DNA of 10,368 nucleotides from UHGV virus genome UHGV-0067349; one strand, given 5' to 3'. The notes beneath the pieces were generated by a model, which ran no database searches, was not told where the DNA came from, and was given only the letters and a program-made list of their open reading frames with translations. This document shows positions 3,329 through 10,003 of this stretch, in pieces (positions within the stretch are counted from its first letter, which is position 1; each line of letters opens with the position of its first letter). Made by a program: the position numbers and the translations under genes. Origin of the DNA: a virus.

Positions 3329-3501
3329 TTCCTCGCACGATGTCTTAGCCACCGGATATCCCACAGGTGAGCCGTGTAGTTGAAGGTTTTTACGTCAGAT
3401 TCTTTTGGGACTGGCTTGCGTTTATTTCTGGAGCGTTTCGTTGGAAGGTATTTGCAGTTTTCGCAGATGATGTCTGTGATACTTCGTCGCTGTCGTCTCA
3501 T
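3325..3501 (-). CDS. ninE: NinE
   Basis: Internal ATG at 3501 of track ORF 3325..3546 gives [58 protein letters not shown] (58 aa). Matches lambda NinE from memory. ATGA overlap with the ninB stop. Confidence 0.75.
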
Positions 3502-3908
3502 TCGTACCTCCTGTCGGTAAATCTGACACCCTGACCAATAGCCCATGCTGTCGTGTACTCAATCAGACTTGCCATACGCTTCACGCTCATCTGCGCGCTG
3601 CTTTCGCGAATGTTGACGTATTCGCCTTCAAGGCCTGGCAAAACATCAGCTTCCTGTTTTGTTGCCACTGCATGACCGCTGATCAACAAAACCTTCCATT
3701 GTTCTGGTTTTAACCATTTGCCGCACCATTGAACCTGACGAGCGATATCCGCCAGCATCGCGTGAAATTTTGCGTTCTGGTCAAGGTTGCGCTTGTAGTC
3801 AGTAATGCGGATGGTGACTGGCTTGTCTTTATCGAGAGGAGTTTCGAGGATGGCGTTGATTGCGGCTTGCTGTTGTTGCTTAGTTCGGAGGAATATTGTT
3901 TGCTTCAC
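3498..3908 (-). CDS. ninB: Recombination protein NinB (Orf family)
   Basis: 136-aa [66 protein letters not shown]... aligns with lambda NinB as recalled. GTG start with AAGGAG SD 6 nt upstream. Confidence 0.85.
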
Positions 3909-3919
3909 TGAACACTCCT

Positions 3920-4105
3920 TTATTTTTTATGCCTGTAACCCCATTCTTCCAGCAACCTTGCGGCGTACCACCCAAGAAACAAAGGAAAGAACATTACAAT
4001 GAGATATGCCACGCCACGGTCAATGTTCGAAATTGACCAGATTACGATGTAACCAGTGCAGGACAGGAATATTACAAACCCCAAAAAGCTACTTCGTCGA
4101 CTCAT
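3920..4105 (-). CDS. Small two-TM membrane protein (61 aa), unknown function
   Basis: Track ORF 3920..4111. Better start is ATG 4105 with AAGGAG 5 nt upstream: MSRRSSFLGFVIFLSCTGYIVIWSISNIDRGVAYLIVMFFPLFLGWYAARLLEEWGYRHKK. Two hydrophobic segments and a basic C-terminus. Confidence 0.5.
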   Translation of the reverse strand: MSRRSSFLGFVIFLSCTGYIVIWSISNIDRGVAYLIVMFFPLFLGWYAARLLEEWGYRHKK

Positions 4106-4107
4106 GC

Positions 4108-4440
4108 TCACTCCTTCACTTTGACTCCAGCAGCGCGGATGGCTTTCATCACTGCAATTACCGTTTTGTCCTTCCCATCCTCATGCCCCATCGCATAAGC
4201 ACCTTCTTCACCATCTTTCCAAAAGTCGTCATTCGATTCTGGCCAGTCGATATCCAGTTCAATAGCTGCTCGCGATGCCTGCCACGTTTGCCAGTGGCCT
4301 TGAACATCGTCCATCACGTATTGACCACCAATATCACCACTGCCAATTTCATGGTGATTTTCAGGGTAACGGATAAGGTCTGAGGATTCGCCTCCACGTC
4401 GCAACCAACTTTCTTCAAACTGCTTTCTTGATTCGTCCAT
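4108..4440 (-). CDS. Hypothetical acidic soluble protein (110 aa), unknown function
   Basis: ORF MDESRKQFEESWLRRGGESSDLIRYPENHHEIGSGDIGGQYVMDDVQGHWQTWQ... with GAGGGT SD. Stop lies 2 nt before the start of the downstream small membrane gene. Asp/Glu/Trp-rich. Confidence 0.6.
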   Translation of the reverse strand: MDESRKQFEESWLRRGGESSDLIRYPENHHEIGSGDIGGQYVMDDVQGHWQTWQASRAAIELDIDWPESNDDFWKDGEEGAYAMGHEDGKDKTVIAVMKAIRAAGVKVKE

Positions 4441-4457
4441 CGATACTTACCCTCAGT

Positions 4458-4664
4458 TCAACTCACAAAACGCCACGCCATTTTTGCTACGACAACAGGC
4501 ATAACACCGATAATCACCCACAGGAAAATGCTACCGAAAAGCACACCAACCAGGTCTTTACCTTCGCCTACCAACCGGACAAAACTGCTGGCAACCACAA
4601 TGAACGTCGCCACCATCCACATAGCACCGAGAATCCTCAATGCAGAGAAAATCAACTCAACCAC
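4458..4664 (-). CDS. Small two-TM membrane protein (68 aa), unknown function
   Basis: GTG start preceded by GGGGGAGAG. MVELIFSALRILGAMWMVATFIVVASSFVRLVGEGKDLVGVLFGSIFLWVIIGVMPVVVAKMAWRFVS. First gene after the tR2-like terminator. Confidence 0.5.
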   Translation of the reverse strand: MVELIFSALRILGAMWMVATFIVVASSFVRLVGEGKDLVGVLFGSIFLWVIIGVMPVVVAKMAWRFVS

Positions 4665-4678
4665 GATTTACTCTCCCC

Positions 4679-4711
4679 CAAATAAAAAGGCCTGCGATTA
4701 CCAGCAGGCCT
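4679..4711 (-). terminator. Intrinsic terminator downstream of the helicase gene (tR2 analogue at the replication/nin boundary)
   Basis: Minus strand AGGCCTGC-tggtaatc-GCAGGCCT followed by TTTTTATTT: perfect 8-bp GC-rich stem, 8-nt loop, U-tract. Begins 26 nt after the helicase stop. Confidence 0.7.
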
Positions 4712-4736
4712 GTTATTAACTCAGTGATGTAGATGG

Positions 4737-6113
4737 TCATACGTCAGCCCCTTGTGTATATCGTCTGCCACGCGCAGCAGGTGCATTTGATGCTGTGCAA
4801 ATCTGTCTGGCTTCATCCTGGTCACATGCAACAAAGTGTCCGTTACAGAACCGCTGGTAAACCGTACCAAGCGAGCCAAAACGGTTTTTCGTCACAATGA
4901 TTTCAGCAAATGGCGCGGCGCTACTGTTCTCGTCATATACCGCTTCCCGATAGAGCATGATGATTGAGTCTGCGTCCTGTTCAATGCTTCCTGAATCACG
5001 CAAATCTGCGTTTGTCGGGCGTTTGTTTGGTCGCTTCTCAACATCGCGCGAAAGCTGACTCAGGGAGATAACGGGCGTTTTCAGGTCTTTCGCCATCGCC
5101 TTCAGGCTTCCGGAGATGTGAGCAATTGCGAGGTCGTTGCGGTCTGCTTTCGGCTTCTCAATCAGACCAAGATAATCCACCATGATGAGTGACAGGTTTG
5201 GATTTTCCTGTTTGTGCCGTTCTGCGATTGAGCGTATTTCTTCGACCGATAACCGCGAGGCATCGACTACCCATACATCCAAATCTGCAAGCTGACTCAT
5301 GCCGTTAGCAACGCGCGCCCAGCCTTCGTCATCCATCGATGCAGGATTTCGCAGCACGCTAACCGACATCCTCCCGGCGTTGGCAATGCTTCGCTCTGCA
5401 ATCTGCAATGCGCTCATTTCCATTGAGAAAATCAACACTCCGCGCCGGACGTCAGAACCAGGAATAACGCGGCTTGCAACGCCTTCGGCAATCTTCAGCG
5501 CCAGCTCGGTTTTCCCCATACCAGGACGAGCAGCGATTATCACCAGGTCTTCTGCGTTCATCCCTCCGGTGATGGCGTCAAGTTCTTCGATTCCGGTCTT
5601 CATGGTATCTGACTCTTCTCCGTTCCTCAGACGCCTGTCAAGCGTGTCAGTGTAGTCAGTGATGATTTCCCCTAACCGTACAGGTTTAACCTCGTCACGG
5701 GGCTTTCTGATGGCTGAGAGACGCTTTACAAGCTCGTCCATCGCCTGACTCGATGTATCGATGGTTCCGCTCTGAATTGGTTCACGCATTTCATCCATGA
5801 TTTCCAGCACCAGACGGCGGTGATAGTTATCCGCGACCATTCCGGCGTATCCCTTCAGGTTTGCGGCACTCGGGCAGTTCTTACTGGTCATCAGGATTGA
5901 CGTGAAATGCTCCTCTCCGCACGCCTCGGCAACCATCAGCGCGTCGATTAGGTTTCTGTTTCTCGCCTGCTTGCGGATAACCTCGAAGGCTTTCCGGTAG
6001 AGCGGAATTGAAAACGCTTCCGGCTCCAGCGTTGCCAGAACGTCACTGGCGGTTGGTGTTAATCCACCAATCAGCAGGCCACCGATAACGCTCGCTTCGA
6101 TATCCTGTTTCAT
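4737..6113 (-). CDS. Replicative DNA helicase, DnaB family (P22 gene 12-type phage helicase)
   Basis: 458-aa ORF with an N-terminal DnaB-like domain, Walker A GMGKTELA, and RecA-fold motifs ([24 protein letters not shown]). GGGGGA SD; ATGA overlap with the upstream O-like gene. Confidence 0.9.
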
Positions 6114-6931
6114 GCAATCCCCCTGTCTGCAAACTTACCTTCCCGTACCCCCGTTAACGAGTCTTCCCTCAGCAGGTAATCAAAATCGGCCGTCCAGCCC
6201 GTGTCGTTGTCTCCGAAGTAAAACGGCTTGGCCTGATGCACAAACGCCCTGACATACGCTCTGAAACCGTCCACGTTTGGCGTTTTCAGTTGCGGGATGA
6301 TTTTCTTCAGGCGGCGTTTGCGTTTCTCGTTGACCGCAACAGCGTGTGGCAGTCTGTCACCGACTTCGGTGTTGTAGGCGTTCAGGAAGGATTCGTAGTC
6401 GATTCGTTCTGCCTTGCGACGTTCAGGTTTAACCTGCCCATCACCGCCCCCGTTAGGGGGTAAGGGGGTATTTGTATTTATTGTCTTTTGTATATTGTCT
6501 TTTGTGTTTAGCTGACTTGGCTTATACCCATTAGCCGACTTGGCTAATGTTTTATTAGCTGTTTTAGCTAATGTTAAGCTGTCCTGGCTAATCCACTGAG
6601 AAACCACCTTGTTCACTCCGATTTTCACGCCATCAGCAATGAGGAATTTACGCTCAATAAGCTGGCGCTTGGCAGCGCAAACATGAGTGTGATGAATACC
6701 TGTCATGGCTGCTATCTGCGTGTTTGTGAGTCGATCCATCGGCTTATTGAATCCGTATGTCTTGCGCATGATAGCGAGCATCACCTTCAACTGCCGGACG
6801 GTTAAATCAGCCATCAGCAGACTGTCGGTAATCTCGTTAGCAACGCGCATGAAACCATCTTCGGTATCTGCCACGCGATGCTCCACGACCTCCAGTTGAG
6901 GCCTGTAATCAGCTAACTTAACGACGCCCAT
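6110..6931 (-). CDS. Replication initiation protein, lambda O-like (P22 gene 18-type), containing the origin
   Basis: 273-aa ORF. N-terminal region aligns with the lambda O DNA-binding domain ([12 protein letters not shown]...[32 protein letters not shown]). Central low-complexity linker ([23 protein letters not shown]...PLPPNGGG) is encoded by the iteron/AT-rich DNA. SD AGGAGTG. Confidence 0.85.
6469..6593. repeat. Origin of replication: four iteron-like direct repeats plus adjacent AT-rich region, inside the O-like gene
   Basis: Plus-strand repeats GCTGACTTGGCTTATA (6511), GCCGACTTGGCTAATG (6534), GCTGTTTTAGCTAATG (6558), GCTGTCCTGGCTAATC (6578), spaced 20-24 bp. Flanked at 6469-6510 by an AT-rich block with duplicated TTGTCTTTTGT, and by the palindrome CCCCCGTTAGGGGG at 6446-6459. 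Same architecture as lambda ori within O. Confidence 0.65.
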
Positions 6932-7801: not shown

Positions 7802-8518
7802 ATGGAAAATAAAAAATCACTGACGACAGAACAGCTCGAAGACGCTAAGCGGCTTAAGGCTTTGTATGAGTCAAAAAAGAAAGAATTGGGAATAACCCAA
7901 TACTCAATCGCTGATGAACTGGGTATCACCCAAGGAGCGGTAGGGCATTATCTTAATGGCAGAAACGCGCTAAACGTTGAGGTTGCATCTGGTTTTGCAC
8001 GATTGTTGCAAGTCTCAATTGCTGATTTTAGCCAGTCAATTGCTGCCAAGGTTGCAGAACAGGCAGAAAGCCTTAAGAGCGATGCCAACGTAAGGTATGC
8101 AGGGGAATACAGAGCAGGAAAGAGGTATCCGGTGTTAAGCAGTATCCAGGCTGGCTCGTGGTGTGAAGCATGCGAACCATACACCATTAAAGACATAGAT
8201 GTTTGGCTTGAGTCTGACGCGCATATTCAAGGTAATGCGTTTTGGCTTAAAGTGGAAGGTGATTCAATGACGGCACCGGTTGGGTTAAGCATTCCAGAGG
8301 GAACATTCGTTCTTTTCGATACCGGAAGGGAGGCGATCAACGGCAGCTTGGTCATAGCAAAACTTTCTGACTCTAACGAAGCAACATTCAAGAAGCTGAT
8401 AATCGACGGCGGAAATAAATACCTCAAGGGACTTAACCCTGCATGGCCTCTCGTGCCAATCAATGGAAACTGCAAGATTATAGGCGTTGCAATTGAGACA
8501 AAACTAAGGCTGGTTTGA
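7802..8518 (+). CDS. cI: CI prophage repressor (HTH N-domain plus LexA-like S24 autocleavage C-domain)
   Basis: 238-aa ORF MENKKSLTTEQLEDAKRLKALYESKKKELGITQYSIADELGITQGAVGHYLNG... Parallels lambda cI, with AG cleavage site (IQAGSW), catalytic Ser motif VEGDSMTAP and Lys motif TFKKL. Divergent from, and heteroimmune to, lambda. Confidence 0.9.
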   Translation: MENKKSLTTEQLEDAKRLKALYESKKKELGITQYSIADELGITQGAVGHYLNGRNALNVEVASGFARLLQVSIADFSQSIAAKVAEQAESLKSDANVRYAGEYRAGKRYPVLSSIQAGSWCEACEPYTIKDIDVWLESDAHIQGNAFWLKVEGDSMTAPVGLSIPEGTFVLFDTGREAINGSLVIAKLSDSNEATFKKLIIDGGNKYLKGLNPAWPLVPINGNCKIIGVAIETKLRLV

Positions 8519-9730: not shown

Positions 9731-10003
9731 ATGACAGTAGTCATTACATATCTGGCTGACGATAACGCCAGAAATCGCCGCAGAGCACGCAGACAGGCTC
9801 AACGTGAACAGGCAATGCAAGAGCAGCGACTGGCGCGAAAGATTGCGCTAAAGCTCTCTGGTTGCGTCAGAGCAGACAAAGCAGCATCACTCGGAAGCCT
9901 TCGCTGTAAGAAGGCAGATGAATGCAGTGGAAGTATTTGCCTGCCAAACGTAGCCATTTACGCGGCAGGCTACCGGAAATCAAAACAACTGACGGCGAGA
10001 TGA
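9731..10003 (+). CDS. N: Antiterminator N (arginine-rich motif); reading frame appears interrupted relative to the conserved C-terminus
   Basis: ATG at 9731 with GGAGG SD. MTVVITYLADDNARNRRRARRQAQREQAMQEQRLARKIALKLSGCVRADKAASLGSLRCKKADE... carries an ARM like lambda N (QTRRRERRAEKQAQW). The lambda-like N C-terminus (..GEMTCVGRQKQRGKSIPAYYD, stop 10057-10059) is in the -1 frame (open 9922-10059). Confidence 0.6.
   Translation: MTVVITYLADDNARNRRRARRQAQREQAMQEQRLARKIALKLSGCVRADKAASLGSLRCKKADECSGSICLPNVAIYAAGYRKSKQLTAR

What the first reader, a model, noticed from the sequence alone, without database searches (positions are those of the whole stretch)
3920..4711. Three-gene cassette of unknown function directly behind the tR2-like terminator
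Immediately after a textbook intrinsic terminator come a 68-aa two-TM protein, a 110-aa highly acidic soluble protein and a 61-aa two-TM protein, each with a good SD and packed within 2-18 nt of each other, upstream of ninB. Lambda has ren at this position. None of the three is recognisable to me. A small-membrane-protein plus acidic-partner layout is common in toxin/immunity and phage-exclusion modules, and the region between replication genes and ninB is a known variable cargo site. The terminator means full expression needs N-mediated antitermination unless an internal promoter exists.
Basis: partly seen in the sequence, partly recalled or inferred. Interest (0 to 1): 0.55.

Follow-up and report, generated by a model that had tools for sequence, protein, structure and literature searches.

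The report
Shuffled small genes behind lambda tR2
The three small genes are real, but they are separately inherited, uncharacterised accessory genes that fill a well-known variable slot between the lambda tR2 terminator and ninB in an E. coli prophage; nothing shows they form one toxin/immunity or exclusion system.

Summary
On the minus strand an intrinsic terminator (4711-4678) is followed by a 68-aa two-helix membrane protein (4664-4458), a 110-aa acidic protein (4440-4108, pI 4.7), a 61-aa two-TM protein (4105-3920), then ninB. All three are under purifying selection.

The terminator is lambda tR2 itself, about 68/70 nt identical. In lambda its downstream Shine-Dalgarno feeds ninB directly, and ren lies upstream of tR2, so ren does not occupy this slot.

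Of 97 viral contigs carrying this exact tR2, 48 have an empty slot. The rest carry 1-5 small ORFs from a shared pool. ORF68, the ORF110 family and ORF61 occur in many combinations, and their alleles and modules shuffle freely.

- ORF68 is phrog_1165 (HK022 gp58).
- ORF110 is phrog_343/PF26207 (HK022 gp59, 933W L0091, Sf6 gp48). It has three conserved helices and two hypervariable inserts, and no known fold.
- ORF61 is a narrow E. coli-prophage family that RefSeq mostly leaves unannotated.

There are no PADLOC, Pfam or NCBIfam hits, and no promoter-like site between tR2 and ninB. An N gene is present. The best reading is independent, N-dependent delayed-early accessory genes. Their functions remain unknown, and the guesses of envelope or competitor targeting are inference only.

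The parts
4678..4711 (-). Intrinsic terminator tR2: hairpin AGGCCTGCTGGTAATCGCAGGCCT plus TTTTATTTGG
   Evidence: terminator scan; about 68/70 nt identical to lambda tR2 and to the terminator annotated tR2 in HK620.
4458..4664 (-). ORF68: 68-aa helical-hairpin membrane protein, phrog_1165, 93% identical to HK022 gp58. Its GTG start is served by the GGGGGAGAG SD that feeds ninB in lambda.
4108..4440 (-). ORF110: acidic soluble protein of family phrog_343/PF26207. Three conserved helices (about 2-14, 44-56, 92-103) and two hypervariable inserts. Its last codons, AAG GAG TGA, carry the SD of ORF61.
3920..4105 (-). ORF61: 61-aa two-TM protein with N-terminal RR and a K/R-rich C-terminus. A narrow family found in E. 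coli prophages.
4657..4740 (-). 27-aa hydrophobic ORF spanning tR2 ([27 protein letters not shown]), annotated as ninA in HK620 and SPN9CC. It shares an ATGA overlap with the dnaB stop and overlaps the ORF68 start by 8 nt. Its coding status is unresolved.
3498..3908 (-). ninB (GTG-start allele), the downstream border of the slot
   Evidence: ORF61 is always linked to this GTG-start ninB 5' end (67/67).
4737..6113 (-). DnaB-type replicative helicase, the upstream border of the slot
9731..10003 (+). N-type antiterminator, presumed to be needed for read-through of tR2
   Evidence: PF25694, E=1.1e-15.

Best explanation
Shown. The locus is the lambda tR2 terminator followed by three separately inherited small genes. 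They occupy the variable slot between tR2 and ninB in the pR (early-right) operon of a P22/lambda-type E. coli prophage.

The genes are joined by short conserved linkers that contain the ribosome-binding sites. The GGGGGAGAG after tR2 serves whichever gene comes first: ninB in lambda, ORF68 here. The conserved '...KVKE-stop' end of the ORF110 family (AAAGTGAAGGAGTGA/TAA) carries the SD of whichever gene follows, ORF61 or ninB.

ORF68 and ORF61 are small two-helix membrane hairpins. ORF110 is a cytoplasmic acidic protein of a very large enterobacterial phage family. It is built from three conserved helices that flank two hypervariable inserts.

Inferred regulation. No promoter-like site lies between tR2 and ninB, and the prophage encodes N. 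The genes are therefore probably silent in the lysogen and made only as N-dependent delayed-early products during lytic growth. By analogy with the whole nin region, they are probably dispensable for plaque formation.

Inferred function, low confidence (about 0.3). Each gene acts on its own as an accessory factor. The charge distribution suggests the two hairpins insert N-in/C-in in the inner membrane. There they may act on an envelope process, such as entry of superinfecting DNA or a host membrane factor. The variable inserts of ORF110 may bind and neutralise a variable host or rival-phage target. The three genes are not a toxin-antitoxin or immunity triad.
For: - Identity of tR2 and of the shared SD.
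- Occupancy of the slot: 48 of 97 tR2-anchored viral contigs are empty, as in lambda. The rest hold 1-5 small ORFs in more than 20 architectures.
- Independent assortment:
  - ORF68 occurs alone in HK620, HK75 and many contigs.
  - The ORF110 family occurs without ORF68 in 18 of 97 contigs.
  - An ORF61 homologue sits directly after DnaB in L229.
  - In occupied slots the Fisher test gives p=0.76.
  - All ORF68-allele by ORF110-module combinations exist.
- Counts among 5,426 complete E. coli genomes: ORF68 in 532, any part of ORF110 in 749, full-length ORF110 in 74, ORF61 in 195. The whole 1 kb at full coverage is in 1 genome.
- Coding reality.
- Linker and SD junctions.
- Regulation: no promoter-like site; N gene present.
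- Structure: ORF68 hairpin, pLDDT 90. In ORF110 the conserved columns coincide with the predicted helices.
- Family size: 955 clusters at 50% identity. The best 150 are all 51-161 aa, mostly 85-110 aa, with no fused domains.
- nin genes are dispensable in lambda, and the gene pool is highly variable (PMC10695390, PMC5630979).
Against: - No functional data exist for any of the three genes.
- The promoter scan uses consensus matching only. It cannot exclude weak, activator-dependent or non-sigma-70 promoters.
- ORF61 follows a gene ending in '...KVKE' in nearly all loci. In the tR2-anchored sample it always co-occurs with ORF68 and the ORF110 family (6/6), so some functional linkage cannot be excluded.
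- ORF68 and the ORF110 family are adjacent more often than chance when empty slots are counted (OR 8.8).
- The samples are phylogenetically non-independent.
- The N-in/C-in topology is inferred from charge distribution alone.
Confidence: 0.6

Rival explanations
1. One reading: the three genes form one toxin/immunity or phage-exclusion (abortive infection) module. A small membrane effector (or two) would be controlled by the acidic soluble partner.
For: The layout has two small membrane hairpins flanking an acidic protein, tightly packed, with ORF110 and ORF61 probably translationally coupled. ORF61 co-occurs with the other two in the tR2-anchored sample (6/6).
Against: - No PADLOC hit at E<=1.
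- ORF68 commonly stands alone, which is implausible for an unguarded toxin.
- ORF110-family genes occur without either membrane gene.
- ORF61 occurs alone after DnaB.
- No allele co-variation.
- No own promoter, and a position behind tR2 in a repressed operon. The genes would therefore not be expressed in the lysogen, where exclusion or addiction modules act.
Confidence: 0.07
2. ORF68 and the ORF110-family protein form a two-gene functional pair, a membrane anchor plus a soluble, variable partner. ORF61 would be an unrelated add-on.
For: Of 23 tR2-anchored loci that contain ORF68, 17 also carry an ORF110-family gene. In loci fetched by the ORF110 family, ORF68 is the upstream neighbour in 38 of 68 contexts and another two-TM ORF in 9 more. 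The same pair is present in HK022, H-19B, mEp213 and Stx phages.
Against: - Given an occupied slot, the two are independent (OR 1.26, p=0.76).
- ORF68 alone and ORF110 family alone are both common.
- Both ORF68 alleles (A, and B at 57% identity) combine with every N-module and C-module state of ORF110.
- Adjacency is forced by position: ORF68 is always the first gene after tR2.
Confidence: 0.1
3. The two hairpin proteins are holin- or pinholin-like, or are regulators of lysis timing.
For: They match class II holins and pinholins in size and in having two transmembrane domains; this comparison rests on established knowledge. The hairpin itself is confirmed.
Against: No holin Pfam family hits at E<=1. 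They lie in the early operon about 4 kb from the lysis region, and the window has its own HP1-family holin at 201-404. ORF68 and ORF61 show no detectable sequence similarity to each other.
Confidence: 0.05
4. One or more of the ORFs, especially ORF61, is not a real gene but a chance ORF in inter-cassette DNA.
For: RefSeq/PGAP leaves ORF61 unannotated in most genomes. Among close copies pN/pS is 0.75, with variable sites spread evenly over codon positions. ORF61 has no PHROG family.
Against: Against a 75%-identical copy, omega is 0.17, differences concentrate at third codon positions, a strong SD is preserved and both other frames are closed. All 16 distinct sequences are intact. ORF68 and ORF110 are clearly constrained.
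Confidence: 0.03

Closest known systems
The lambda tR2-ninB junction and the nin region (N-independence region) of lambdoid phages
   Same: The terminator and its downstream SD are the same, about 68/70 nt identical. The operon position is the same, between the replication genes and ninB...Q. nin genes are dispensable and highly mosaic (PMC10695390, PMC5630979).
   Different: In lambda, ninB starts 51 nt after the beginning of the tR2 hairpin. Here 0.74 kb carrying three extra genes is interposed.
HK022 gp58 and gp59; unannotated ORFs after tR2 in HK620 and H-19B; 933W L0091; Sf6 gp48
   Same: HK022 gp58 is 93% identical to ORF68. HK022 gp59 shares the N-module of ORF110 (69% overall). 933W L0091 shares the C-module (88% over residues 50-109).
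   Different: The module combinations differ. HK022 has a different third gene (gp60, 84 aa) in place of ORF61. None has a known function.
lambda Ren
   Same: Both lie in the neighbourhood between the replication genes and ninB.
   Different: ren lies upstream of tR2 and coexists with ORF68 and ORF110 homologues in H-19B and mEpX1. There is no sequence relationship: Pfam, PHROG and NCBIfam give no Ren hits.
Small inner-membrane superinfection-exclusion proteins (T4 Imm, HK97 gp15); functional analogy only, recalled from the literature
   Same: These are small helical membrane proteins encoded by phages. They act at the inner membrane against incoming DNA.
   Different: No homology was detected. 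HK97 gp15 is a promoter-bearing moron expressed in the lysogen, whereas these genes have no promoter and lie behind tR2.
Small acidic phage anti-defence proteins (Ocr, ArdA and similar); functional analogy only
   Same: They are small, strongly acidic, fast-evolving accessory proteins made early in infection.

Membership tests
lambda tR2 intrinsic terminator | G+C-rich hairpin followed by a U-tract, downstream of the replication genes, homologous to lambda tR2 | tested here: met
   (hairpin plus T-run). (about 68/70 nt identical to lambda). (same sequence annotated tR2 in HK620).
lambda tR2 intrinsic terminator | Terminates pR transcription unless N is present | not testable with these tools
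   An N gene is present. Termination and antitermination were not measured.
PHROG phrog_1165 (ORF68) | Full-length profile match | tested here: met
   E=1.1e-36, residues 1-68 against profile positions 1-68 of 68. Function unknown.
PHROG phrog_343 / Pfam PF26207 (ORF110) | Profile match, with the conserved motifs F-E-x-W, W-x-x-W-Q-A-S-R and a C-terminal A-G-x-K-V-K | tested here: met
   E=2.6e-31; all 120 listed homologues carry PF26207 (precomputed). The model is absent from the local Pfam copy, so the window protein itself could not be scored. Motifs.
NinA (as annotated in P22-like phages and HK620) | The 27-aa ORF that starts at the stop codon of the replication gene and spans tR2 | tested here: not met
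   ORF68 is a different, downstream ORF. The NinA-type ORF is separately present at 4740-4657.
Ren (lambda) | Sequence homology to Ren and a position upstream of tR2 | tested here: not met
   No Ren family hit. ren lies upstream of tR2 in lambda and H-19B.
Known anti-phage defence systems (PADLOC-DB 2.0) | Match to any component model | tested here: not met
   no family at E<=1 for any of the three proteins.
Toxin-antitoxin or toxin-immunity module | Obligate co-inheritance of the toxin and its antidote | tested here: not met
   every gene occurs without the others, and there is no allele co-variation.
Toxin-antitoxin or toxin-immunity module | Own promoter, with expression in the carrier (lysogenic) state | tested here: inconclusive
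   No sigma-70-like site between tR2 and ninB, but the scan uses consensus matching only.
Toxin-antitoxin or toxin-immunity module | Toxicity of one component that is neutralised by another | not testable with these tools
   This needs expression experiments.
Class II holin / pinholin | Holin family profile match and a location in the lysis cassette next to the endolysin | tested here: not met
   No holin Pfam hit. The genes lie in the early operon. A separate HP1-family holin is at 201-404.

The most novel reading that the evidence does not exclude
The ORF110 family (phrog_343/PF26207, at least 955 clusters at 50% identity) could be a modular arms-race family. A conserved three-helix scaffold would display two freely recombining hypervariable inserts, each version neutralising a different host defence or rival-phage protein. 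The tR2-ninB slot would then be a linker-mediated cassette array of lytic-cycle counter-defence and exclusion genes, and ORF68 and ORF61 would be early-expressed inner-membrane superinfection blockers.
Probability: 0.15. Interest if true: 0.6.

Novelty: new member of a known kind. Interest (0 to 1): 0.22.

Why it matters
This result removes a tempting but unsupported 'three-gene defence cassette' reading.

It places the locus precisely as cargo inserted between lambda tR2 and ninB. The cargo is assembled from interchangeable single-gene cassettes whose junctions are the ribosome-binding sites themselves.

Three modest leads remain:
- a very large family of small acidic proteins with an unusual architecture of conserved scaffold and hypervariable inserts, and no known fold;
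- a conserved two-TM gene (ORF61) that standard annotation misses in about 195 complete E. coli genomes;
- a widespread first-gene-after-tR2 membrane hairpin (ORF68) present in many Stx2a phages.

Any of these could turn out to be a counter-defence or exclusion factor, but nothing here shows that.

Tried and rejected
- Pfam, NCBIfam and PADLOC scans of all three proteins found nothing. The local Pfam copy lacks PF26207, so that family's name and description could not be read.
- ORF110 was modelled with AF2 (pLDDT 79.6; residues 70-84 are disordered). The model was searched with:
  - Foldseek against PDB: nothing below E=5;
  - BFVD: only uncharacterised relatives;
- A PDB sequence-profile search found no hits.
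- A profile search of 1.84 billion representatives found only small stand-alone proteins and no informative domain fusions. PHROG scans of 95 relatives returned only unknown-function families.
- I first read ORF68 as NinA from the feature names under tblastn hits. I rejected this after inspecting HK620 and SPN9CC, where NinA is the 27-aa ORF across tR2.
- 'phiTE_015 family protein' is only an NCBI name for an ORF110 variant with the same N-module. It is not in the local NCBIfam copy.
- ORF68 and ORF61 show no detectable sequence similarity, so nothing suggests they are paralogues.
- Literature searches for the motifs, family ids and nin-region membrane proteins gave nothing specific.
- Complex prediction of ORF110 with each membrane protein could not be run with the available tools.

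Full report
**Context.** The window is the immunity and early-right region of a P22/lambda-type enterobacterial prophage, with the pR operon on the minus strand.
- Regulatory genes: cI (7802-8518, +), cro, cII.
- Replication genes: an O-type initiator (6110-6931) and a DnaB-type helicase (4737-6113).
- Then the finding, followed by ninB (3498-3908), ninE, ninX, further nin genes and Q (1078-1701).
- An N-type antiterminator lies at 9731-10003 on the plus strand (PF25694).
- The 1-kb stretch around the finding is 99% identical to a prophage in E. coli WP4-S18-ESBL-08. Pieces of it occur in 2,049 of 5,426 complete E. coli genomes and in 403 phage records.

**Observation.**
- The only terminator-like site in 3400-5200 is an 8-bp stem with 6 G-C pairs at 4711-4688, followed by a T-run.
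- ORF68 (4664-4458, GTG start) begins 23 nt after the stem. Its SD, GGGGGAGAG, directly follows the T-tract.
- ORF110 (4440-4108) has 24 acidic and 13 basic residues, pI 4.69, and no hydrophobic segment.
- ORF61 (4105-3920) starts at an ATG 5 nt after AAGGAG. The alternative GTG at 4111 has no spaced SD.
- The gaps are 17, 2 and 11 nt.
- AF2 models ORF68 as a two-helix hairpin (H2-33, turn EGKD, H38-67) with pLDDT 90.

**Are they genes?** Yes.
- ORF68 homologues keep exactly 68 codons without gaps down to 44% amino-acid identity and 57% nucleotide identity. The loop motif GKD and the C-terminal half are invariant. pN/pS is about 0.5, or about 0.26 after saturation correction.
- ORF110 has pN/pS 0.21.
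- Close copies of ORF61 are too similar to be informative (pN/pS 0.75). A 75%-identical copy from a metagenome gives omega 0.17, with differences of 17/6/22 by codon position, a preserved strong SD and closed alternative frames.

**The terminator is lambda tR2, and ren is not the counterpart of this slot.**
- An alignment with lambda shows about 68 of 70 nt identical, running from the ATG of a tiny ORF through the hairpin to GGGGGAGAG.
- In lambda that SD is followed by the ninB start codon. Here and in HK620 it is followed by ORF68.
- lambda ren lies upstream of tR2. H-19B has ren, then tR2, then unannotated homologues of ORF68 and ORF110.
- Relative to lambda, the three genes are therefore a 0.74-kb insertion between tR2 and ninB.

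**What the genes are.**
- ORF68 is phrog_1165 (E=1.1e-36, full length, function unknown). It is 93% identical to HK022 gp58. It is present in HK75, HK629/630, mEpX1, phage 86 and 48 Stx2a phage records, and as a 44-58% allele in HK620, mEp213, H-19B and P22-like Salmonella phages. It occurs in 532 of 5,426 E. coli genomes.
- The label 'NinA' that appears under some hits belongs to a different ORF, a 27-aa ORF spanning tR2.
- ORF110 is phrog_343 (E=2.6e-31). All of its 120 listed homologues carry the precomputed Pfam PF26207, which is absent from the local Pfam copy.
- The ORF110 family is large: 955 clusters at 50% identity at E<=0.001. The best 150 are all 51-161 aa, mostly 85-110 aa, with no fused domains.
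- Alignments show three conserved segments: N-terminal SRxQFExW, central WxAWQASRAAIE and C-terminal AIRAAGIKVKE. These coincide with predicted helices 2-14, 44-56 and 92-103. They are separated by two hypervariable inserts.
- The N and C halves of ORF110 recombine freely. Among 120 homologues, 43 share only the N-module. In 109 phage records, including 933W L0091 and VT2-Sakai, the best match is 80-90% identical, and in the records listed it covers only residues 50-109. The full combination occurs in just 74 E. coli genomes, against 749 with some part of it.
- ORF61 has no PHROG family. It forms only four clusters (at least 74% identity) among 5.8 billion proteins and occurs in four phage records. 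It is present in 195 E. coli genomes, where PGAP usually leaves it unannotated.
- ORF68 and ORF61 show no detectable sequence similarity to each other.

**Is it a cassette?** No.
- I anchored a sample on the exact tR2 sequence alone, which gave 97 viral contigs with at least 1.5 kb downstream.
  - 48 have ninB 51 nt after the start of tR2, as in lambda.
  - The other 49 hold 0.26-1.3 kb with 1-5 small ORFs in more than 20 architectures.
  - The ORFs are drawn from a pool: ORF68, the ORF110 family, ORF61, a 108-aa one-TM protein, 66- and 71-aa soluble proteins, a 60-aa two-TM protein and others.
- In that sample ORF68 is present in 23 contigs, the ORF110 family in 35, ORF61 in 6 and all three in 6.
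- Within occupied slots, ORF68 and the ORF110 family are independent (17/6/18/8, OR 1.26, p=0.76).
- Loci fetched by ORF68, ORF61 or the ORF110 family show the same picture:
  - ORF68 alone in 31 loci;
  - ORF68 plus ORF110 family in 25 or more;
  - ORF61 with other genes and no ORF68 in about 15.
- The diverged ORF61 homologue follows DnaB directly.
- Every combination of ORF68 allele (A or B) with the same or different ORF110 N- and C-modules exists. This argues against a specific physical partnership.
- One caveat applies. ORF61 nearly always follows a gene ending in ...KVKE, and it always comes with the GTG-start ninB allele (67/67). This looks like linkage within one mosaic block.

**How the slot is built.**
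- Junction sequences are short conserved linkers that contain the SDs.
- The conserved 3' end of the ORF110 family, AAA GTG AAG GAG TGA/TAA, is followed 2-5 nt later by the start of ORF61 or of ninB. The same linker precedes ORF61 even when a different upstream gene is present.
- The junction with different replication genes lies exactly at the ATG of the 27-aa ORF that spans tR2.
- This fits the known gene-boundary mosaicism of lambdoid phages, which draw on a pool of 30-50 nin genes (PMC5630979).

**Regulation.**
- No sigma-70-like site reaches 9/12 anywhere in 3400-5200.
- A laxer scan at 8/12 finds only one site, inside dnaB and upstream of tR2.
- With tR2 in front and N encoded nearby, the genes are most simply N-dependent delayed-early genes that stay silent in the lysogen. 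This is inferred, not measured.
- In lambda the whole nin region can be deleted without loss of plaque formation (PMC10695390).

**Function.**
- Nothing in sequence, structure, defence-system libraries or the searchable literature assigns a function.
- The toxin/immunity or exclusion reading is disfavoured on three grounds: independent assortment, the absence of a promoter, and stand-alone ORF68.
- My committed but weak inference follows.
  - The two hairpins are N-in/C-in inner-membrane proteins, judged from basic residues at both termini.
  - They act singly on an envelope process during lytic growth.
  - ORF110 is a cytoplasmic binder whose variable inserts set its target specificity.
- The verdict is an ordinary, already-catalogued piece of nin-region mosaic cargo. 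The architecture of the ORF110 family and the unannotated ORF61 are the only mildly interesting leads.

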